Assembly: GCA_016201795.1 (NCBI GenBank)
Contig: JACQCF010000004.1
Span: 74,117 to 138,116 of the forward strand
Length of the DNA: 64,000 bases
From: Candidatus Omnitrophota bacterium
GTDB taxonomy: Bacteria; Omnitrophota; Gorgyraeia; Zapsychrales; Fredricksoniimonadaceae
Direction: 5' to 3'
Under the pieces are notes generated by a model. The model was not told the origin of the DNA and searched no databases. It saw only the letters and a program-made list of their open reading frames with translations. This document shows, one piece after another, positions 2,209-18,519 of this stretch. A program made the translations under genes and the position numbers. The first letter of the stretch is position 1, and every line of letters starts with the position of its first letter.

Positions 2209-4113
2209 ATGTTTAAATCTTTAGAGCTTCTCGTCGGCCAGAACATTCATTTCGATGATGTCATCAAAATTCTAGTCGCCTTTGGTTTTTTCAGGGCGAC
2301 TAAAGTTTTTAAAGAGGGTGAATTTGCCCTGCGCGGCGGCATTCTCGACATTTATCCGGCCAATTTCGAGGTTCCCTTACGTATTGATACCGAAGATGAC
2401 GTGATTCACTCCATTACCGGGTTCGATTTATCCAGCGGGAAGATGATTGAAGAGCATCAGATCGTGATCATCCTGCCGTTTAAAACATCTTTCCAGGCGG
2501 TTTTTTCGTCGGAAATTCCTCTTAATAATTTCGTAGACATCGAAGCAGGTGATTTGGTCGTGCATAACAATCACGGCATCGGCCGATTTTTGGGCATCCG
2601 TGAATTTGAACTCAATTGGCAAAAAAAAGAACATTTGATCATTGAGTATAAAGACGGGGACAGGCTTTTTGTGCCCAAACACGACCTTCATCTGGTGCAA
2701 AAATATGTTACTTTTACTAAAAAGACCACCAGGCTTAATAAATTGGGCAGTAAAGAATGGGCAGCGACCCGTCGGGCCATTGAGAAAAAACTAAAACAGA
2801 TGGCCGCTGAGCTTTTACGCATTCAGGCTTTGCGCACCCAGTTGGCCGGCTACGCCTTTTCCAAAGATACCGACTGGCAGAGGGAATTTGAAGCCAGGTT
2901 TCCTTATCAGGAGACTCCGGATCAAATGAAAGCAACTATGGAAGTCAAAAAAGACATGGAGGAAGCCGGGCCCATGGACCGGCTGATTTGTGGGGATGTC
3001 GGTTACGGTAAAACCGAGGTAGCCATGCGTGCGGCGTTTAAAGCAGTCATGGATCATAAGCAGGCGGCGATTTTAGTGCCGACGACGATTTTAGCGGAGC
3101 AGCATTATTACAATTTCACCAAACGCTTGGAAGGTTTTCCGGTGAAAGTGGCCATGCTTTCGCGTTTTCGTACCAAGTCCGAGCAGACAGCGATTATCCG
3201 GGAGCTTCAAGAGGGCAAGGTGGATATCATTATCGGCACGCATCGGCTTTTGTCCAAAGACATTGCCTTTAAAGATTTAGGGCTGGTCATTATCGACGAG
3301 GAACAGCGTTTTGGCGTTAAATCTAAAGAAAAACTTAAAACATTTCGGCTTTTGGCGGATGTGCTGACTCTTTCGGCTACTCCCATTCCACGTACTTTAT
3401 ACATGGCGCTTGCCGGGGCACGGGATATGTCGGTGATTGCAACCCCGCCGACGAATCGTTTATCCGTAAAGACCCAAATCATTCCTTTTGATGAAGAGAT
3501 TATTGAAGAAGCTATTGGGCGGGAATTGGCCCGTCATGGCCAGGTTTTTTTCTTGCACAACCGCGTGGATAATATTGAAATAATCGCTCAAAGCATAAAG
3601 TATATGGTCCCGCAGGCCAGGGTCGAGATTGCTCATGGGCAAATGAGTGGTCGTCTTTTGGAAGAAATTATGTTAAAATTTCTGCAACAAAAAATCGACG
3701 TTCTGGTTTGTACGACGATCGTCGAATCCGGCATTGATGTCCCTTCAGCGAATACTTTGATTGTTAATCGGGCGGATCAATTCGGGCTTTCGGAGCTTCA
3801 TCAATTAAGAGGCCGCGTGGGCCGGCTGGATGTACAGGCCTGGGCCTATTTGATCGTACCGTCAAACCAAGCATTATCCGAAGTGTCCAAACAAAGACTG
3901 AAGGCCATTGAAAAATACAGCGATTTAGGTGCCGGTTTTCATATCGCCTTTGAAGATTTGCAGATTCGCGGCGCCGGCAATTTACTGGGCGCCCAGCAGC
4001 ATGGGTTTATATCCTCGATTGGTTTTGATTTGTATTGCCGAATGCTCAAGGAATCTATCGAACATCTCAAAAAAGAATTGGAGATCAAAGACCATGAACA
4101 CACATTGGTTTAG
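2209..4113 (+). CDS. mfd: Transcription-repair coupling factor Mfd, compact 634-aa form lacking most of the N-terminal UvrB-homology region
   Basis: RNAP-interacting D4-like segment (VVHNNHGIGRFLGIREFE…YKDGDRLFVP). SF2 translocase motifs (GDVGYGKTEV, DEEQRFGV, SATPIPRT, QLRGRVGR). Start of the TRCF domain (DLQIRGAGNLLGAQQHGF). The N-terminal residues keep only one UvrB-like GEFALRGGILDIYP module. The start abuts the secDF stop. Confidence 0.85.
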   Translation: MFKSLELLVGQNIHFDDVIKILVAFGFFRATKVFKEGEFALRGGILDIYPANFEVPLRIDTEDDVIHSITGFDLSSGKMIEEHQIVIILPFKTSFQAVFSSEIPLNNFVDIEAGDLVVHNNHGIGRFLGIREFELNWQKKEHLIIEYKDGDRLFVPKHDLHLVQKYVTFTKKTTRLNKLGSKEWAATRRAIEKKLKQMAAELLRIQALRTQLAGYAFSKDTDWQREFEARFPYQETPDQMKATMEVKKDMEEAGPMDRLICGDVGYGKTEVAMRAAFKAVMDHKQAAILVPTTILAEQHYYNFTKRLEGFPVKVAMLSRFRTKSEQTAIIRELQEGKVDIIIGTHRLLSKDIAFKDLGLVIIDEEQRFGVKSKEKLKTFRLLADVLTLSATPIPRTLYMALAGARDMSVIATPPTNRLSVKTQIIPFDEEIIEEAIGRELARHGQVFFLHNRVDNIEIIAQSIKYMVPQARVEIAHGQMSGRLLEEIMLKFLQQKIDVLVCTTIVESGIDVPSANTLIVNRADQFGLSELHQLRGRVGRLDVQAWAYLIVPSNQALSEVSKQRLKAIEKYSDLGAGFHIAFEDLQIRGAGNLLGAQQHGFISSIGFDLYCRMLKESIEHLKKELEIKDHEHTLV

Positions 4114-5035
4114 AGTTTTTAGTTGTATTGTCTTGGCTTTGATGATCCCTTCGCTGGCGGCGGCCAAGCCCCTTCATGACGCTATTATCGCCATTGTCAA
4201 CGATGATGTGATTACCCTTAAAGATCTCAAAGATTACATGAGCGGTGTTTACCGCCAGTTGAAAGTAGAGAATAAAGACCCTAAGGAAATTCAGGAAACC
4301 ATGGCCTCTTATGAAGAAAAGGGGGTTGATCAGCTGGTGGAAGATAAATTGATTTTAGCCGCGGCGGATGAGAAGGGTTTGGAAATCCGACCGGAGGCTA
4401 TTGAAAAACAGCTTAAAGATATCAAAGACCGTTATCCTTCGGAGGATCAATTTTTGGAGGCCCTTAATACTCAGGGTATGACGGTGACGGATTTAAAAAA
4501 TAAGCTCATCCGTCAGATGAAAGCCAAATATATGGTGGATATCGAAGTCAAAAATAAAATTTTTGTTAACCCTCAGGACGTAACTCGTTATTACAATGAT
4601 CATAGCCATGAATTTGAACACAAAACTAAATACAATCTTGATTCGATTTATATTTCTTTCGACCAGGATAAAGATCAGGCTATCAAGCGTATTGGTGAAG
4701 CCCGTCAGAAGTTAGCTGCTGGCGAAGATTTTCAGAAGATGGCCCAAGAATATTCCGAGGCGCCTTCGGTAGGAACACTCGAAGAAGGACAAATGGTCCC
4801 AGCCGTCGAAAAAGAAGTATTCGGTCTTAAAATAGGAGATATTTCACAGCCGGTGGCGGTCGAAGGCGGGGTGTATGTATTTAAGGTGACCGGTATTTTG
4901 GCAGGAGGGGTGCAATCGCTTCAGGAGGCCAGAGACAGCGTTTACAATAAACTTTACAATCAACAATTTCAGGAAAAATTTAAGGCCTGGATTGATAAGT
5001 TACACGAAAAAGCTTATGTCGAAATCCGCAGTTAG
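4094..5035 (+). CDS. Periplasmic chaperone / peptidyl-prolyl isomerase, SurA-like (SurA_N + PpiC rotamase domain)
   Basis: Signal peptide (MNTHWFRVFSCIVLALMIPSLAAA). SurA-N-like helical region. C-terminal parvulin/PpiC motif (…GQMVPAVEKEVFGLKIGDISQPVAVEGGVYVFKV). The track ORF starts at 3929, but the ATG at 4094 is followed by a signal peptide and overlaps the mfd stop by only 20 nt. Confidence 0.8.
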   Translation: MNTHWFRVFSCIVLALMIPSLAAAKPLHDAIIAIVNDDVITLKDLKDYMSGVYRQLKVENKDPKEIQETMASYEEKGVDQLVEDKLILAAADEKGLEIRPEAIEKQLKDIKDRYPSEDQFLEALNTQGMTVTDLKNKLIRQMKAKYMVDIEVKNKIFVNPQDVTRYYNDHSHEFEHKTKYNLDSIYISFDQDKDQAIKRIGEARQKLAAGEDFQKMAQEYSEAPSVGTLEEGQMVPAVEKEVFGLKIGDISQPVAVEGGVYVFKVTGILAGGVQSLQEARDSVYNKLYNQQFQEKFKAWIDKLHEKAYVEIRS

Positions 5036-13024: not shown

Positions 13025-13968
13025 ATATTTTAGGTATTGAAACTTCCTGTGATGAAACTGCCGCTGCCGTTGTCACGGATGGGGTGCGGGTGCGCTCCAA
13101 CGTGGTGGCCAGCAGCCTTAAAGAACACGCGCCTTTCGGTGGTATTATTCCCGAAATCGCCTCCCGACGACAAATCGAATGGATTCACGGCGTTGTGGCT
13201 CAAGCCCTGGCGCAAGCACATATGAGTTTGAAGGATATTGATGCGGTGGCGGTAACGGTCAAGCCGGGGTTGATTGGTTCTTTGCTGGTGGGTGTTTCTT
13301 TTGCGAAGGGATTAGCTTATGCCACCAAGAAGCCGCTCGTTGAGGTCGATCATATTCAGGCGCACTGGTATGCTAATTTTTTGCGTTTGGCCTTTGAGCA
13401 TAAACCTTTGCCAGTTTTACCGGCGGTAGGGCTGGTGGTCTCGGGCGGCCACACCAGCCTTTTTGATATCAAAGATTTTCATCGGGTTAAATGTTTAGGG
13501 AAAACCCGCGATGATGCCGCCGGGGAGGCTTTTGATAAAGTGGCCCGTCTGTTGAATTTAGGTTATCCCGGCGGGCCGGCCATTGACCGTTTAGCTCAAA
13601 CAGGGGTTAATGACCAGATTCGTTTTCCCCGCTCAGGGCTTGAGGGCAGTTATGATTTTAGCTTCAGCGGTCTTAAAACAGCAGTGCTGTATTATACCCG
13701 TAAGCATAAAGATTTTCGTGTAGAACAAGTCGTTTATGCTTTCCAGGAAAGTGTGGTCAGGGTTTTAACCGATAAAGCCATTGAGGCCTGCCGCCGTAAA
13801 AAGGTAAAGACTTTGCTGGTTGGCGGGGGAGTGGCGGCCAATTCCGCTCTACGACGATATTTAATGGAAGCTTCAGAGTCCCGAGGCATTCAGGTGCATT
13901 TTCCACCCATGGCCTTTTGTCTGGATGACGCCGCTATGATTGCGGGGCTGGGATATCATCTGATGTAG
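13021..13968 (+). CDS. tsaD: tRNA N6-adenosine threonylcarbamoyltransferase TsaD (Kae1/YgjD family)
   Basis: MNILGIETSCDETAAAVV… N-terminus. …VSGGHT… and HxxH-type metal-binding context. 315 aa. Confidence 0.9.
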   Translation: MNILGIETSCDETAAAVVTDGVRVRSNVVASSLKEHAPFGGIIPEIASRRQIEWIHGVVAQALAQAHMSLKDIDAVAVTVKPGLIGSLLVGVSFAKGLAYATKKPLVEVDHIQAHWYANFLRLAFEHKPLPVLPAVGLVVSGGHTSLFDIKDFHRVKCLGKTRDDAAGEAFDKVARLLNLGYPGGPAIDRLAQTGVNDQIRFPRSGLEGSYDFSFSGLKTAVLYYTRKHKDFRVEQVVYAFQESVVRVLTDKAIEACRRKKVKTLLVGGGVAANSALRRYLMEASESRGIQVHFPPMAFCLDDAAMIAGLGYHLM

Positions 13969-13970
13969 CA

Positions 13971-13999
13971 TTGACTTTAACAGGGGAATTTGGTATATA
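13971..13999 (+). promoter_or_regulatory. Near-consensus sigma70-type promoter (TTGACT-17-TATATA) for the bactofilin-HTH operon
   Basis: TTGACT at 13971-13976, a 17-nt spacer, TATATA at 13994-13999. It lies directly after the tsaD stop. Confidence 0.6.
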
Positions 14000-14017
14000 T
14001 GGTTTAAAGGTGGTTCC

Positions 14018-14098
14018 TCTCCCGCCGTTGGCGGGATCGGGATTAATTCCCCCCACTGATTCGTTTTGTATTCGCAAAGCGAATCAAAACGGTGGGGG
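14018..14098 (+). promoter_or_regulatory. Structured 5' leader with a 21-nt perfect palindrome and a nested triple hairpin
   Basis: First element TCTCCCGCCGTTGGCGGGATC (14018-14038). Second element is a nested structure: CCCCCCAC…GTGGGGG enclosing CGTTTTG/CAAAACG, which encloses ATTCGC-AAA-GCGAAT (14049-14098). The RBS AAGGGGGTG and the ATG at 14117 follow. The identical 21-mer recurs at 44469-44489. Confidence 0.55.
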
Positions 14099-14116
14099 TC
14101 ATTAAGGGGGTGAATT

Positions 14117-14638
14117 ATGGCATTTACTCGTCGGGAAATAAAAGAAACTTCACAGGAAAAAGTCATTGAAATCAATGCTCAAATGGATGGAGTGCTCTCT
14201 TTTGGCGATCCGGTCAATTTAAAAATCACCGGGCGTTTTTCGGGTAAATTGGATACCAAAGGGACGCTGACCGTCGGCCAAACAGCCTATGTGGAGGCGC
14301 AGATTCAAGGTGAAAATATTGTCATCGCCGGTAAAGTCAAAGGTAATGTGGTAGCCAAGAAAATGCTGGTCCTTATGCCTACGGCTGTTTTAACGGGGGA
14401 TATTTTCACGCCAAAACTAAATATCGTCGAGGGGGCCGTGTTTCAAGGGCGTTGCCAGATGTTGGATGAATTTTTGAATGTGGAAGATCTAGCCCAATAT
14501 TTGGAAATTGAATCCGCGGCCATTGAAGAACTGGCTACGACCGGCAAAATTCCGGCGATTAAAGACGATCACGGATGGAAATTTGAGCGGATTAAAATTG
14601 ACCAATGGGCCGCGTCTGTCAAGGTGATGAAGTCATGA
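14117..14638 (+). CDS. Bactofilin (DUF583) domain protein fused to a C-terminal excisionase/MerR-type helix-turn-helix (HTH_17-like) domain
   Basis: Residues ~30-115 show the bactofilin beta-helical repeat (ITGRFSGKLDTKGTLTVGQTAYVEAQIQGENIVIAGKVKGNVV…LTGDIFTPKLNIVEGAVFQGRCQM). The C-terminal 50 aa, VEDLAQYLEIESAAIEELATTGKIPAIKDDHGWKFERIKIDQWA, matches the excisionase-family HTH pattern. Confidence 0.65.
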   Translation: MAFTRREIKETSQEKVIEINAQMDGVLSFGDPVNLKITGRFSGKLDTKGTLTVGQTAYVEAQIQGENIVIAGKVKGNVVAKKMLVLMPTAVLTGDIFTPKLNIVEGAVFQGRCQMLDEFLNVEDLAQYLEIESAAIEELATTGKIPAIKDDHGWKFERIKIDQWAASVKVMKS

Positions 14639-14934
14639 GCGGGCAATATATTACCGTACGCGAGACAGCCCAGATTTTAGGTGTTTCCGAGAAGAAAGTC
14701 ATGGATCTCATTGAAGCCGGCCAATTGCAGGCTTACCGCATTGCCGAGCAATTTTTACGTCTCAAACGTAATGAAGTGGCGCAGGTGCGCACCAGCGGCC
14801 AGGTGATAAGCGAACATGCTCCTCACGATTACACCACAGCCCAGAAGGTTAAAGATTTTTTTTATTTTAATGATTTCTACATTTTTTCTTCCCTGGTTAT
14901 CTTAAGCCTGCTGTACGTCATTTTTTTGACGTAA
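14635..14934 (+). CDS. Small excisionase-family HTH (HTH_17-like) protein with a C-terminal transmembrane anchor
   Basis: MSGQYITVRETAQILGVSEKKVMDLIEAGQLQAYRIAEQFLRLKRNEV is an HTH_17-like domain. The C-terminus FYFNDFYIFSSLVILSLLYVIFLT is a hydrophobic TM segment. Its ATG overlaps the upstream stop (ATGA at 14635-14638). Confidence 0.6.
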   Translation: MSGQYITVRETAQILGVSEKKVMDLIEAGQLQAYRIAEQFLRLKRNEVAQVRTSGQVISEHAPHDYTTAQKVKDFFYFNDFYIFSSLVILSLLYVIFLT

Positions 14935-15004: not shown

Positions 15005-15080
15005 GGCGGCGTAGCTCAGTTGATAGAGCATTCGGTTCATACCCGACAGGTCAGTGGTTTAAGTCCACTCGCCGCCACCA
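15005..15080 (+). tRNA. tRNA with anticodon CAT (elongator Met or, more likely, tRNA-Ile2 / lysidine-CAU type)
   Basis: 76-nt cloverleaf. Acceptor GGCGGCG/CGCCGCC. D-arm GCTC-AGTTGATA-GAGC. Anticodon arm TTCGG-TTCATAC-CCGAC (anticodon CAT, C29 so not initiator). T-arm AGTGG-TTTAAGT-CCACT. Encoded 3' CCA. The variable/T-loop region (AGGTC…GGTTTAAGTCC) resembles E. coli ileX more than metT. Confidence 0.8.
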
Positions 15081-15131: not shown

Positions 15132-15257
15132 GTGCGAAGATTTTTCCATTTCATCGTCCTTGGTATGCTTATACTTTCCACCTCGGGCTGTGCGGTCATT
15201 GGCACTGTCATCAGTGCGGGTATTGGTTATGGCATATACAAAGCGATAAAGCATTAG
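15132..15257 (+). CDS. Unannotated small hydrophobic peptide ORF (41 aa from GTG 15132, or 30 aa from ATG 15165), glycine-zipper membrane peptide / lipoprotein-like
   Basis: Translation: (V)RRFFHFIVLGMLILSTSGCAVIGTVISAGIGYGIYKAIKH*. It has a basic N-terminus, a hydrophobic core, a Cys after LSTSG (lipobox-like), then a GxxxG-type segment. Not in the ORF track (<60 aa). It lies between the tRNA and the next gene. Confidence 0.35.
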   Translation: MRRFFHFIVLGMLILSTSGCAVIGTVISAGIGYGIYKAIKH

Positions 15258-17517: not shown

Positions 17518-18519
17518 ATGGATTTAGCCACCAAAGTTTTCTACATAATGATTAAAGATCAGCTGACCAATATTGCAGATACGGTGGTGGTGGGCGTTTC
17601 CGGCGGTGCAGATTCCACAGCCTTACTACACATTTTGTATCAACTACGTCATCGTTTGGGTGTCAAACTTCATGTAGCTCATTTTAATCATGGTTTGCGT
17701 TTTCAGGCAGGGGCCGATGAAGCTTTTGTGAAAGATTTGGCAACCAGGCTGAATTTACCTTTTAGCGTTGGACATCGACGTGGCCGTTTAAAATCCTGCC
17801 TTATTTCTGAAGATCAGGCCCGTCAATGGCGGTTTGATTTTTTTTTCAAGGTCGCCCGCCACGTAAAAGCCCAGGCCATTGCTCTGGCGCATACCGAAAA
17901 TGATCTAGCTGAAACAGTACTCATGCGTCTGTTGCGGGGGGCAGGGTTATTGGGATTAAGGGGTATTGCTAGTGAGCATCAGATGGCCCAGATCAAATTG
18001 ATTCGGCCGCTTTTATCCATTGGGCGCCGCGACATCGAGCGTTATCTTAAAACACATCGTTTAACCTACCGTAGTGATGCGACCAATGCGCAAACGCATT
18101 ATTTTCGTAATAAAATCCGTTTGAAACTGTTACCGCTTTTGGTGAAGGAGTATAATCCTAATCTAGCTCATATTTTGGTTGATTTAGCGCATACGGCCCA
18201 GATAGATTATGATTATCTGTTACAACAAGCTCGACGATGTTTCGAAAAAACCGTTGTTGTTTCCAAAAGAAAAGTTACAATGAAACTTAAAATTTTTCTC
18301 AGACAGCATCCATCGATGCAGCGCATGCTTTTAAGATTAGCTTTCGAACGTTTAGTTAAAGATATCAATCAGTTAAGTTTTGCGCATATGCAGGAAGTGG
18401 AAGATTTGTTGGAAAGAAGGCCCGCCGGTTCTGTGGTACATTGGCCCGGCTCTGTCGGGGTTCTTAAATCCAAAGACGCACTGATTTTGTACATGACCCG
18501 AAGCAAACCCTTGATTTAA
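17518..18519 (+). CDS. tilS: tRNA(Ile)-lysidine synthetase TilS
   Basis: PP-loop VVVGVSGGADSTALLHIL. ~330 aa, TilS-like architecture. Confidence 0.85.
   Translation: MDLATKVFYIMIKDQLTNIADTVVVGVSGGADSTALLHILYQLRHRLGVKLHVAHFNHGLRFQAGADEAFVKDLATRLNLPFSVGHRRGRLKSCLISEDQARQWRFDFFFKVARHVKAQAIALAHTENDLAETVLMRLLRGAGLLGLRGIASEHQMAQIKLIRPLLSIGRRDIERYLKTHRLTYRSDATNAQTHYFRNKIRLKLLPLLVKEYNPNLAHILVDLAHTAQIDYDYLLQQARRCFEKTVVVSKRKVTMKLKIFLRQHPSMQRMLLRLAFERLVKDINQLSFAHMQEVEDLLERRPAGSVVHWPGSVGVLKSKDALILYMTRSKPLI

What the first reader, a model, noticed from the sequence alone, without database searches (positions are those of the whole stretch)
13971..14934. Bactofilin fused to an excisionase-type HTH, coupled to a membrane-anchored HTH protein, behind a consensus promoter and an elaborately structured leader
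- The ORF at 14117-14638 has a clear bactofilin beta-helix signature (…KVKGNVVAKKMLVL…LTGDIFTPKLNIVEGAVFQGRCQM).
- Its C-terminal ~50 aa match the excisionase/MerR-like HTH_17 pattern (LNVEDLAQYLEIESAAIEELATTGKIPAIKDDHGWKF…IDQWA).
- The next gene overlaps by ATGA and encodes a second HTH_17-like domain ending in a single TM helix.
- Bactofilins are polymer-forming scaffolds that usually carry unstructured tails; a direct fusion to a DNA-binding domain, paired with a membrane-tethered DNA-binding partner, suggests a self-contained filament-based module for DNA anchoring, segregation or positioning.
- It sits as a two-gene insert between tsaD and a tRNA gene.
- Its promoter TTGACT-17-TATATA and ~120-nt leader, containing two strong hairpin systems, indicate dedicated regulation.
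Basis: partly seen in the sequence, partly recalled or inferred. Interest (0 to 1): 0.78.

Follow-up and report, generated by a model that had tools for sequence, protein, structure and literature searches.

The report
Omnitrophota bactofilin–HTH membrane scaffold pair
This is a real, uncharacterised gene pair found across the uncultured phylum Omnitrophota: a filament-forming bactofilin fused to a DNA-binding-type domain, made together with a small membrane-anchored protein carrying a related domain. It is a conserved core-genome module rather than an insert, and the fused domain looks more like a protein-docking piece than a DNA reader.

Summary
**Observation: confirmed.**
- ORF 14117-14638 is a bactofilin (Pfam 84 bits) joined directly to an excisionase/BldC-type winged HTH. 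The HTH_17 score is 27.2 against a cut-off of 27.
- ORF 14635-14934 overlaps it by ATGA. It encodes an HTH_17 domain, a conserved DFFYFNDFY motif and a C-terminal transmembrane tail anchor.

**Interpretation: partly supported.**
- The pair is not an insert. Thirteen species-level Omnitrophota genomes keep ctpA–deacetylase–tsaD–pair–tRNA(CAT).
- Divergent relatives (36-58% identity) keep the pair in other neighbourhoods, and 65 of 66 metagenomic loci have the partner directly downstream.
- Thousands of protein clusters carry the fusion. Every named one is Omnitrophota.
- The promoter TTGAC-N15-TGnTATATA is conserved. The two-hairpin leader occurs only in the closest relatives.
- The fused HTH is acidic in all 118 close members. 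Its recognition helix is the most variable part of the protein and lacks the basic residues of BldC and RacA.

**Best reading:** a membrane-bound bactofilin scaffold whose HTH docks the tail-anchored partner. Direct DNA tethering remains possible.

**Verdict:** new variant of a known kind, with no literature found on it. Interest 0.55.

The parts
13971..13999 (+). Promoter: -35 TTGACT (13971-13976), 17-nt spacer, extended -10 TGgTATATA (13991-13999). The -35 lies directly after the tsaD stop codon.
   Evidence: Read from the sequence. The pattern TTGAC-N15-TGnTATATA is unique in the window with up to 1 mismatch (chance 0.12). It occurs exactly once in 9 of 25 related loci; in seven (L001, L004, L005, L006, L023, L024, L025) it lies directly upstream of the bactofilin gene, and in L012 and L013 it lies about 280-300 nt upstream, in L012 inside the MgtC-like ORF. 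The generic scanner missed it because the -10 ends in A.
14011..14045 (+). Leader hairpin P1: outer stem GGUUCC/GGGAUU enclosing the perfect 7-3-7 palindrome UCCCGCC-GUU-GGCGGGA.
   Evidence: MFE fold. The outer stem is shared with L023 and L002, and the apical part is variable. It is absent from most relatives.
14050..14098 (+). Leader hairpin P2: CCCCCCAC...GGUGGGGG with a 34-nt apical extension, ending 8 nt before the Shine-Dalgarno sequence.
   Evidence: MFE fold, z = -3.9. The basal stem is kept in L023 and L002 with compensatory changes (6 of 22 pairs, but only 3 sequences). It is not repeated elsewhere in the window and has no Rfam family.
14106..14112 (+). Shine-Dalgarno sequence GGGGGTG of the bactofilin-HTH gene.
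   Evidence: Read from the sequence. A purine-rich AGGAG/GGGGG element sits at the same place in relatives.
14117..14638 (+). Bactofilin-HTH fusion gene (173 aa).
   Evidence: ORF, Pfam and AF2 model at pLDDT 86. There are 798 homologous clusters at E<=1e-3, the listed ones 68-94% identical and full length.
14117..14161 (+). N-terminal disordered tail (residues 1-15, MAFTRREIKE...), resembling a bactofilin membrane-targeting sequence.
   Evidence: pLDDT is below 50, yet M1, F3 and R5 are invariant in 42 relatives. Compare the published MTS consensus MFSKKKK with key residues M1, F2, K4 and K7 (PMC12448750). The membrane-binding role is inferred.
14162..14461 (+). Bactofilin beta-helix core (residues 16-115), including F109, the counterpart of the polymerisation-critical Phe.
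   Evidence: PF04519 at 84.2 bits. Foldseek 2n3d TM-score 0.86 and rmsd 1.8 A. F109 aligns with BacA F130 and TtBac F105 and is invariant in close relatives.
14471..14617 (+). C-terminal winged HTH (residues 119-167; helices 122-129 and 133-142, wing 148-157, helix 158-172). It is acidic, and its recognition helix is variable.
   Evidence: PF12728 at 27.2 bits. Foldseek hits are RdfS, BldC, RacA and Xis. Net charge is -3 to -6 in 118 of 118 close members. Entropy peaks at residues 133, 134, 137 and 141.
14621..14638 (+). Translational-coupling junction: Shine-Dalgarno-like AAGGTGA (14621-14627), then ATGA, in which the partner start 14635-14637 overlaps the bactofilin stop 14636-14638.
   Evidence: Read from the sequence. 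The overlapping or abutting start/stop is kept in 10 of 12 related loci.
14635..14934 (+). Partner gene (99 aa): N-terminal HTH_17, linker, aromatic motif and C-terminal transmembrane tail anchor.
   Evidence: Pfam 35.3 bits and TIGR01764 'excise' 32.4 bits. There are 671 homologous clusters, all about 99-101 aa. It is present directly downstream of the fusion in 65 of 66 testable metagenome loci.
14647..14784 (+). Partner HTH_17 domain (residues 5-50), with a nearly invariant recognition helix SEKKVxDLI and wing QAYRIAxQFLRLKR.
   Evidence: The profile matches the DNA-binding excisionase Pukovnik Xis 4j2n at E 2.7e-4. Mean net charge is +1.3.
14854..14880 (+). Conserved juxtamembrane aromatic motif DFFYFNDFY (residues 74-82).
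   Evidence: D74, F75, Y77, N79, D80, F81 and Y82 are invariant in 33 relatives. The motif is kept as DFWRFNNFY in the distant subfamily.
14872..14928 (+). C-terminal transmembrane helix (residues 80-98). Only 1 residue follows it, so this is a tail anchor.
   Evidence: Kyte-Doolittle 19-residue window 2.29. AF2 helix 80-98 with pLDDT about 90. Conserved in all partners.

Best explanation
This is a two-protein, translationally coupled structural module found throughout the phylum Omnitrophota. It builds a membrane-attached bactofilin scaffold.

**Shown**
- The first protein has a complete bactofilin core with the polymerisation Phe.
- It has a conserved N-terminal peptide that resembles a membrane-targeting sequence.
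- A BldC/excisionase-type winged HTH replaces the usual disordered C-terminal tail.
- The second protein is a 99-aa tail-anchored membrane protein with a distantly paralogous winged HTH.
- The two genes stay together, start overlapping stop, across deep divergence and changing neighbourhoods.

**Inferred**
- The bactofilin polymerises on the inner face of the membrane.
- Its acidic HTH has lost the basic recognition-helix residues and no longer reads DNA. Instead it acts as a docking domain for the mildly basic HTH of the partner, possibly in the head-to-tail manner seen in BldC and Xis multimers.
- The polymer therefore clusters and positions the tail-anchored protein, and the anchor reinforces the polymer's attachment to the membrane. 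This parallels the membrane client PbpC, which can substitute for the membrane-targeting sequence of Caulobacter BacA.
- Any DNA contact would come from the partner's HTH or from the conserved basic wing residues, and would be of low sequence specificity.
For: - **Domains and fold:**
- **Polymerisation residue:** F109 aligns with BacA F130 and TtBac F105.
- **N-terminal tail:** M1, F3 and R5 are invariant although the tail is disordered, compared with the MTS consensus MFSKKKK.
- **The pair is the conserved unit:**
  - 13 of 13 genome loci carry it.
  - Distant members L014, L016, L018, L019 and L021 carry it in different contexts.
  - 65 of 66 metagenome loci carry it.
  - The family sizes are similar, 798 and 671 clusters.
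  - The ATGA junction is conserved.
- **The fused HTH is unlikely to read DNA:**
  - It is net acidic in 118 of 118 close members and 18 of 20 distant ones.
  - Helix-2 surface positions 133, 134, 137 and 141 have the highest entropy (2.0-2.7 bits), whereas K144, P146, A147, W154, F156, R158 and W164 are invariant.
  - It carries S-A-A-I-E-E where BldC has K-T-V-T-R and RacA has K-T-V-Q-R.
- **The partner HTH is constrained over its whole surface.** It has a mean charge of +1.3 and still matches a real excisionase by sequence.
- **Precedent:** membrane clients support bactofilin membrane binding (PMC12448750).
Against: - No interaction was tested.
- All structural relatives of the fused domain are DNA binders.
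- Conserved K144, K149, K155 and R158 in the wing could still hold DNA backbone.
- Two of 20 distant representatives have a basic fused HTH.
- The partner's HTH was modelled poorly (pLDDT 52-66), so its fold rests on HMM matches only.
- Polymerisation with a folded domain only about 6 residues from the C-terminal interface is assumed, not shown.
Confidence: 0.4

Rival explanations
1. A DNA-tethering filament. The bactofilin polymer displays arrays of functional winged HTH domains that bind chromosomal DNA directly. Tail-to-tail subunit junctions would place two HTHs side by side. Together with the membrane-anchored HTH partner, the polymer would fasten or position the nucleoid at the membrane, giving a self-contained system for chromosome anchoring or segregation.
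For: - The best structural matches of the C-terminal domain are all DNA binders. They include the chromosome-anchoring protein RacA and the multimerising BldC, Xis and RdfS, and the profile also matches BldC and RacA.
- Wing residues K144, K149, K155 and R158 are conserved.
- The partner resembles Pukovnik Xis.
- The module is conserved across the phylum like a housekeeping function.
- Bactofilins already organise ParABS in Myxococcus (PMC5703909).
Against: - The fused HTH is consistently acidic (-3 to -6 over 47 aa) and its recognition helix is variable and non-basic.
- No linkage to parAB, smc, ftsK or the origin was seen in any context.
- No conserved candidate binding site was found beyond the promoter itself.
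Confidence: 0.3
2. A BacR-like regulatory switch. The tail-anchored HTH protein would be a membrane-tethered transcription factor, for example an autoregulator of the operon's conserved promoter. Its activity would be set by sequestration on the bactofilin polymer through the fused HTH, coupling gene expression to the state of the envelope or cytoskeleton.
For: - In B. subtilis the HTH protein BacR is encoded with bactofilins. They bind it, which lowers its DNA binding and recruits it to the membrane (PMC13649987).
- The promoter upstream of the pair is conserved and dedicated.
- In the window's subclade, palindromes lie just downstream of the promoter.
- The partner's recognition helix is almost invariant.
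Against: - The partner is permanently tail-anchored and has no sensor or release domain.
- The palindromes are absent from most relatives.
- There is no DUF4004 or BacR homology.
- Stoichiometric translational coupling fits a structural complex better than a regulator.
Confidence: 0.15
3. A remnant of a mobile element or a defence system, such as an excisionase or a MADS-type HTH, that landed next to a tRNA gene.
For: - HTH_17 is the excisionase family.
- There are weak matches to MADS MAD1 (38.2 bits), to PADLOC mad1 and MTase_II (E about 1e-3), and to PHROG excisionases.
- A tRNA gene lies 70 nt downstream.
Against: - All these matches are below the curated cut-offs (MAD1 cut-off 80) and cover only the generic HTH.
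- No integrase, repeats or methyltransferase are present.
- Synteny with housekeeping genes is conserved across 13 species, and the proteins are 62-84% identical.
- The module is kept across the phylum.
Confidence: 0.02

Closest known systems
Canonical bactofilins (Caulobacter BacA, Thermus TtBac; Pfam PF04519)
   Same: - Full-length match to the bactofilin HMM, with a predicted right-handed beta-helix (TM-score 0.86 to 2n3d).
- The polymerisation Phe is conserved (F109 = F130/F105).
- It has a short N-terminal Met-hydrophobic-basic peptide like the membrane-targeting sequence.
   Different: - The normally disordered C-terminal tail is replaced by a folded winged HTH joined with almost no linker.
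- The gene is always paired with a tail-anchored HTH protein.
- The family is confined, as far as names show, to Omnitrophota.
Myxococcus BacNOP–PadC–ParB/ParA (PMC5703909)
   Same: A bactofilin scaffold connected to DNA-organising proteins through a dedicated adaptor.
   Different: - There the link to DNA is indirect: the BacP tail binds the PadC adaptor, which connects to ParB and ParA.
- Here no ParB- or ParA-like domain is present, and the DNA-binding-type domain is part of the bactofilin itself.
B. subtilis BacR (YhbD, DUF4004) with bactofilins BacE/BacF (PMC13649987)
   Same: A small HTH protein is encoded in one operon with bactofilin genes. It binds them physically and is held at the membrane by them.
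   Different: - BacR is soluble, belongs to DUF4004, and switches between membrane and nucleoid.
- Here the HTH protein is HTH_17 and integral to the membrane, and a second HTH is fused to the bactofilin.
RacA–DivIVA chromosome anchor of sporulating B. subtilis (PDB 5i44)
   Same: A small MerR-like winged HTH is attached to a self-assembling, membrane-associated scaffold. RacA is among the structural and profile matches.
   Different: - RacA's HTH is N-terminal and basic, and it reads GC-rich sites.
- Its scaffold is a coiled coil plus DivIVA rather than a bactofilin.
- The domain here is acidic, with a variable recognition helix.
BldC and Xis/RdfS excisionases (HTH_17 / MerR-like minimal winged HTH; PDB 6ama, 4j2n, 8dgl)
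   Same: - Same fold, with TM-score 0.64-0.80 normalised to the target.
- The partner profile matches Pukovnik Xis at E 2.7e-4.
- From general knowledge, these proteins act as head-to-tail multimers.
   Different: - They are free-standing DNA-binding proteins of mobile elements or developmental regulators.
- Here one copy is fused to a cytoskeletal polymer and the other to a membrane anchor, with no integrase nearby.
Caulobacter PbpC as a membrane-bound bactofilin client (PMC12448750)
   Same: A bitopic membrane protein binds the polymer through a short cytoplasmic region and contributes to the polymer's membrane association.
   Different: - PbpC is a large cell-wall synthase with a periplasmic catalytic domain.
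- The partner here has essentially nothing outside the membrane, and its cytoplasmic part is an HTH.

Membership tests
Bactofilin (PF04519 / DUF583) | Sequence match to the family HMM above the curated threshold over the whole domain | tested here: met
   84.2 bits against a cut-off of 27.9; profile positions 2-98 of 98.
Bactofilin (PF04519 / DUF583) | Right-handed beta-helical core fold | tested here: met
   AF2 model with pLDDT 90-97 over residues 21-110. Foldseek 2n3d has TM-score 0.86 and rmsd 1.8 A, and 6rib has TM-score 0.77. This is a prediction, not an experiment.
Bactofilin (PF04519 / DUF583) | Conserved hydrophobic residue at the C-terminal polymerisation interface (BacA F130, TtBac F105) | tested here: met
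   F109 aligns with both. It is invariant in 42 close relatives and is hydrophobic (F/L/I/V) in distant ones.
Bactofilin (PF04519 / DUF583) | N-terminal membrane-targeting peptide (consensus MFSKKKK) | tested here: inconclusive
   The window has MAFTRRE, the family consensus is MAFNRKE with M1, F3 and R5 invariant, and distant members have MFKRKPK, MLKRKGK or MKFFSQKKR. These are similar but shifted by one residue, and acidic residues follow. Membrane binding was not tested.
Bactofilin (PF04519 / DUF583) | Nucleotide-independent polymerisation into non-polar filaments | not testable with these tools
   Needs purified protein and EM. A folded HTH about 6 residues from the C-terminal interface could interfere.
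HTH_17 / excisionase-type winged HTH (PF12728, TIGR01764) | HMM match above the curated threshold | tested here: met
   The partner scores 35.3 bits (cut-off 27) and TIGR01764 32.4 bits (cut-off 28.8). The fused domain scores 27.2 bits (cut-off 27), which is borderline, and TIGR01764 19.4 bits, which is below cut-off.
HTH_17 / excisionase-type winged HTH (PF12728, TIGR01764) | Helix-turn-helix plus beta-hairpin wing plus C-terminal helix fold | tested here: met
   Fused domain: H122-129, H133-142, strands 148-150 and 153-157, H158-172. It matches 8dgl, 6ama, 6amk and 4j2n with TM-score 0.64-0.80. The partner is inconclusive (pLDDT 52-66, wing modelled as a helix).
HTH_17 / excisionase-type winged HTH (PF12728, TIGR01764) | DNA binding | not testable with these tools
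   Indirect indicators are unfavourable for the fused domain: net charge -3 to -6, a variable non-basic recognition helix, and E where BldC and RacA have R. They are neutral to favourable for the partner.
Excisionase (recombination directionality factor) of a mobile element | Genetic association with an integrase or mobile element | tested here: not met
   The flanks are housekeeping genes, and synteny is conserved in 13 species. No integrase appears in any of the inspected contexts.
MADS defence system protein MAD1 (NF047737) | Equivalog HMM score above cut-off, plus the other MADS genes nearby | tested here: not met
   38.2 bits against a cut-off of 80. PADLOC gives only E about 1e-3 on the generic HTH of the partner. 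No methyltransferase or other system genes are nearby.
BacR / DUF4004 bactofilin regulators | DUF4004 domain | tested here: not met
   Neither protein has a DUF4004 match in Pfam at E<=1. The resemblance is functional only.
ParB-adaptor type bactofilin systems (PadC-like) | ParB-like or ParA-binding domain in an adjacent gene | tested here: not met
   Neither protein has a ParB or ParA domain, nor do the window neighbours. A ParA/MinD-like gene occurs only near the most divergent member, L020.

The most novel reading that the evidence does not exclude
Omnitrophota, a phylum of mostly ultra-small uncultured bacteria, would use a bactofilin polymer studded with BldC/RacA-like winged HTH domains, plus a tail-anchored HTH partner, as a nucleotide-independent tether between membrane and nucleoid. 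This would be a cytoskeletal filament that itself binds DNA and organises or segregates the chromosome without a ParB-type adaptor.
Probability: 0.22. Interest if true: 0.8.

Novelty: new variant of a known kind. Interest (0 to 1): 0.55.

Why it matters
- **A new architecture for bactofilins.** Bactofilins are widespread scaffolds whose clients and regulation are known in only a handful of model species. Their terminal tails are usually short and disordered.
- **Strong evidence for a partnership.** Here the tail has been replaced by a folded domain of DNA-binding type, across a whole phylum, and it is always co-expressed with a membrane-anchored paralogue. The conservation (62-84% identity across species, pair kept in 65 of 66 loci) indicates an important cellular role in a lineage whose cell biology is almost unknown.
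- **Either outcome is informative.** If the HTHs dock to each other, this is a clear case of a DNA-binding fold recruited as a cytoskeletal adaptor. If they bind DNA, it is the first bactofilin that contacts the chromosome directly.
- **It is testable.** Both proteins are small (173 and 99 aa) and suited to heterologous expression, so the question can be addressed without culturing the organism.

Tried and rejected
2. **Rfam on the leader.** Only the tRNA matched. The wcaG hit at 16 bits (cut-off 42) is noise.
3. **Is the leader hairpin a dispersed repeat?** No. It has a single copy in the window.
4. **Generic promoter scan.** It did not list the promoter because it requires a T at -10 position 6. 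Conservation shows the promoter is real.
5. **Single-sequence PDB search with the fused HTH.** It gave only spurious hits such as L25 and a CBS-associated domain. A family profile was needed.
6. **Metagenome scan with a 22-sequence diverse alignment.** It failed for lack of a conserved stretch and was repeated with one subfamily.
7. **Neighbour clustering in 39 distant loci.** It returned only housekeeping genes (acpS, ydjC, greA, mnmA) and no partition or division genes.
8. **Defence or phage origin.** PADLOC and PHROGs gave only weak generic HTH matches.
9. **Partner AF2 model.** It is too uncertain in the HTH part to use.
10. **BLASTP between the two HTHs.** It found no meaningful alignment. 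Only the family HMM detects the relationship, at E 5e-5.
11. **Frameshift artefact.** Rejected, because the fusion is continuous in thousands of independent clusters.
12. **Leader peptide.** The 44-aa ORF at 13971-14105 starts inside the -35 box and is not conserved, so it was rejected.
Full report
**1. What is in the sequence**

The window carries ORF 14117-14638 (+, 173 aa) and, overlapping its stop by ATGA, ORF 14635-14934 (+, 99 aa). tsaD ends at 13968 and a tRNA with anticodon CAT lies at 15005-15080.

Pfam results for the first protein:
- Bactofilin at residues 16-114: E 7.8e-24, 84.2 bits, cut-off 27.9.
- HTH_17 at residues 119-167: 27.2 bits, cut-off 27.0.

The second protein has HTH_17 at residues 5-50 (35.3 bits). 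NCBIfam adds the 'excise' domain for the partner. Its matches to MADS MAD1 and MamR are all below their cut-offs.

An AlphaFold2 model of the first protein (42-sequence alignment, mean pLDDT 86) shows three parts:
- a disordered tail at residues 1-13;
- a beta-helix at residues 16-115;
- a winged HTH at residues 122-172.

Foldseek against the PDB matches the N-terminal part to BacA (2n3d, TM-score 0.86) and Thermus bactofilin (6rib). It matches the C-terminal part to RdfS excisionase, BldC, RacA, Pukovnik Xis and MerR-family DNA-binding domains.

The partner ends in a hydrophobic helix (Kyte-Doolittle 2.29; AF2 helix 80-98 at pLDDT about 90) with one residue after it, so it is tail-anchored.

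**2. It is not an insert but a conserved core module**

A scan of one genome per GTDB species found 13 loci. All are Omnitrophota MAGs or TPA bins mislabelled 'Planctomycetales'.
- Nearly all keep the order S41 protease – YibQ-type deacetylase – tsaD – fusion – partner – tRNA(CAT) – PMT_2 glycosyltransferase – SNase – tilS.
- The fusion is 62-84% identical across them. That is as conserved as tsaD (62-79%) and more conserved than the deacetylase (46-65%).
- The partner's start overlaps or abuts the fusion's stop in 10 of 12 loci.

The large protein collection gives these counts:
- The fusion has 798 homologous 90%-identity clusters. The 120 listed are full length and nearly all carry both Pfam domains.
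- The partner has 671 clusters, all about 99-101 aa.
- An exhaustive search of 1.84 billion 50%-identity representatives found about 25 further full-length fusion representatives at 36-58% identity.

Contigs encoding these distant members show the same gene pair in different neighbourhoods:
- greA/acpS/ydjC;
- BatD/TPR/MgtC with a PDZ protein;
- SPOR with TPR-PDZ;
- MgtC/purE.

A metagenome scan with one distant subfamily returned at least 522 loci. Of the 66 that have enough downstream sequence, 65 carry an HTH–linker–DFWRFNNFY–TM protein directly downstream. That subfamily alone has 2353 clusters at E<=1e-10, and every cluster that carries an organism name is Candidatus Omnitrophica/Omnitrophota.

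The pair is therefore the conserved unit, and it is a signature of the phylum.

**3. Promoter and leader**

TTGACT-17-TATATA at 13971-13999 is better described as TTGAC-N15-TGnTATATA, an extended -10 promoter.
- This pattern is unique in the 64-kb window even with one mismatch allowed (chance expectation 0.12).
- It occurs exactly once in 9 of the 25 loci then held. In seven of them it lies directly upstream of the bactofilin gene. In L012 and L013 it lies about 280-300 nt upstream, in L012 inside the MgtC-like ORF.
- Dedicated transcription is therefore well supported.

The leader folds into two hairpins (14011-14045 and 14050-14098; -51.2 kcal/mol, z = -3.9).
- The closest relative (L023, 94% protein identity) and L002 share the two basal stems, with a few compensatory changes and different apical inserts. 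Three sequences are too few for statistics.
- L001 keeps one hairpin.
- L003, L006, L024 and L007-L011 have short unstructured spacers of 17-60 nt.
- Nothing matches Rfam, and the hairpin is not a dispersed repeat.

The leader is thus a local feature of one subclade, perhaps an mRNA-stabilising or translation-tuning structure. It is not part of the conserved system.

**4. How it probably works**

Bactofilin features:
- The polymerisation-critical phenylalanine (F130 in Caulobacter BacA, F105 in Thermus bactofilin) aligns with F109, which is invariant in close relatives.
- The disordered N-terminal peptide is nevertheless conserved (M1, F3, R5). It resembles the published membrane-targeting consensus MFSKKKK (PMC12448750).
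- That paper also shows that a bitopic membrane client can substitute for the membrane-targeting sequence.

Features of the fused HTH:
- Its 47-residue core has a net charge of -3 to -6 in 118 of 118 close members. It is negative in 18 of 20 distant representatives.
- The exposed positions of helix 2 (residues 133, 134, 137 and 141) have the highest entropy of the whole protein.
- K144, P146, A147, W154, F156, R158 and W164 are invariant.
- A family profile aligns weakly to BldC, RacA and Xis. Where BldC reads K-T-V-T-R-W and RacA reads K-T-V-Q-R-W, the window protein has S-A-A-I-E-E-L.

Features of the partner HTH:
- It is nearly invariant over helix 2 and the wing.
- Its mean charge is +1.3.
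- Its profile still matches the DNA-binding excisionase Pukovnik Xis at E 2.7e-4.
- The two HTHs are distant paralogues (family HMM E 5e-5).

My preferred reading (confidence 0.4) is a membrane-bound bactofilin polymer whose acidic, degenerate HTH serves as a docking domain for the tail-anchored partner. Any DNA contact would come from the partner or from the basic wing residues.

All structural relatives bind DNA, and the wing basic residues are conserved.

A BacR-like sequestration switch is a third option (0.15; PMC13649987).

A mobile-element or defence origin is contradicted by the synteny and by sub-threshold matches only.

**5. Comparison with what is known**

The protein passes the tests for membership of the bactofilin family: HMM, predicted fold and interface residue. 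The membrane-targeting peptide is inconclusive and polymerisation is untestable here.

Both HTHs are HTH_17 members by HMM, the fused one only marginally. The excisionase role is not met, because there is no integrase or mobile context.

It is not a member of BacR/DUF4004, PadC/ParB-adaptor or MADS systems.

Literature searches found no paper combining bactofilin with Omnitrophota. None describes a bactofilin-HTH fusion. The search covers only the open-access library held here.

**6. Verdict**

This is a real, strongly conserved and uncharacterised architecture: a new variant of a known kind. The 'insert' and 'elaborate leader' points do not generalise, and the DNA-anchoring mechanism is weakened but not excluded.

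Interest is 0.55. Specialists in the bacterial cytoskeleton would find it notable, and it is readily testable in vitro. It extends a known family rather than defining a new kind of system, and its function remains inferred.

Noticed in passing
window 1-64000: Every ORF of 200 aa or more lies on the + strand. The content of the first 34 kb is pure housekeeping: secDF, mfd-like, surA-like, pdxA, ksgA, gatA/gatB, S41 protease, tsaD, tilS, ftsH, folP, uvrB, coaX, groEL, guaB/guaA, dnaE and rpsB. This is an unusually long co-oriented stretch.
   Followed up: partly
window 2209-4113 and 3929-5035: The Mfd-like ORF is only 634 aa, with UvrB_inter, CarD_TRCF_RID, DEAD and Helicase_C domains but no long N- or C-terminal parts. 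It overlaps the next ORF (SurA-like, GTG start) by 185 nt. This is either a compact Mfd or a mis-set start for the next gene.
   Followed up: no
window 15005-15080 and 17518-18519: The tRNA called Met (anticodon CAT) lies 2.4 kb upstream of tilS, and this linkage is conserved in relatives. It could be the lysidine-modified tRNA-Ile2 rather than tRNA-Met.
   Followed up: no
window 15132-15257: A 41-aa ORF, MRRFFHFIVLGMLILSTSGCAV..., has a lipobox-like LSTSGC. It is weakly conserved at the same position in L004 (41% identity), so it may be a small lipoprotein.
   Followed up: no
L012 3528-3965, L018 4535-4972, L021 855-1580: An MgtC-family membrane protein gene lies directly upstream of the bactofilin-HTH gene in three separate lineages. 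In L012 the conserved promoter motif lies inside it.
   Followed up: partly
L020 290-5848: The most divergent fusion (32% identity, N-terminus MKFFSQKKRN, a textbook membrane-targeting sequence) sits behind a Volactin-like actin gene and a ParA/MinD-like ATPase gene. It is followed by a different gene encoding a protein that starts with a hydrophobic segment, not by the HTH-TM partner, although the contig ends there.
   Followed up: partly
window 14854-14880 (partner residues 74-82) and all partner homologues: The aromatic motif DFFYFNDFY (DFWRFNNFY in the distant subfamily) just before the transmembrane helix is as conserved as the HTH itself. Its role is unknown: it could be an interfacial helix, an oligomerisation site or a bactofilin contact.
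   Followed up: partly
L002, L007, L008, L009, L012, L013 (record titles): Several TPA metagenome bins that carry this Omnitrophota-type syntenic block are titled 'uncultured Planctomycetales bacterium'. This is probably a taxonomic mislabel in the public records.
   Followed up: no
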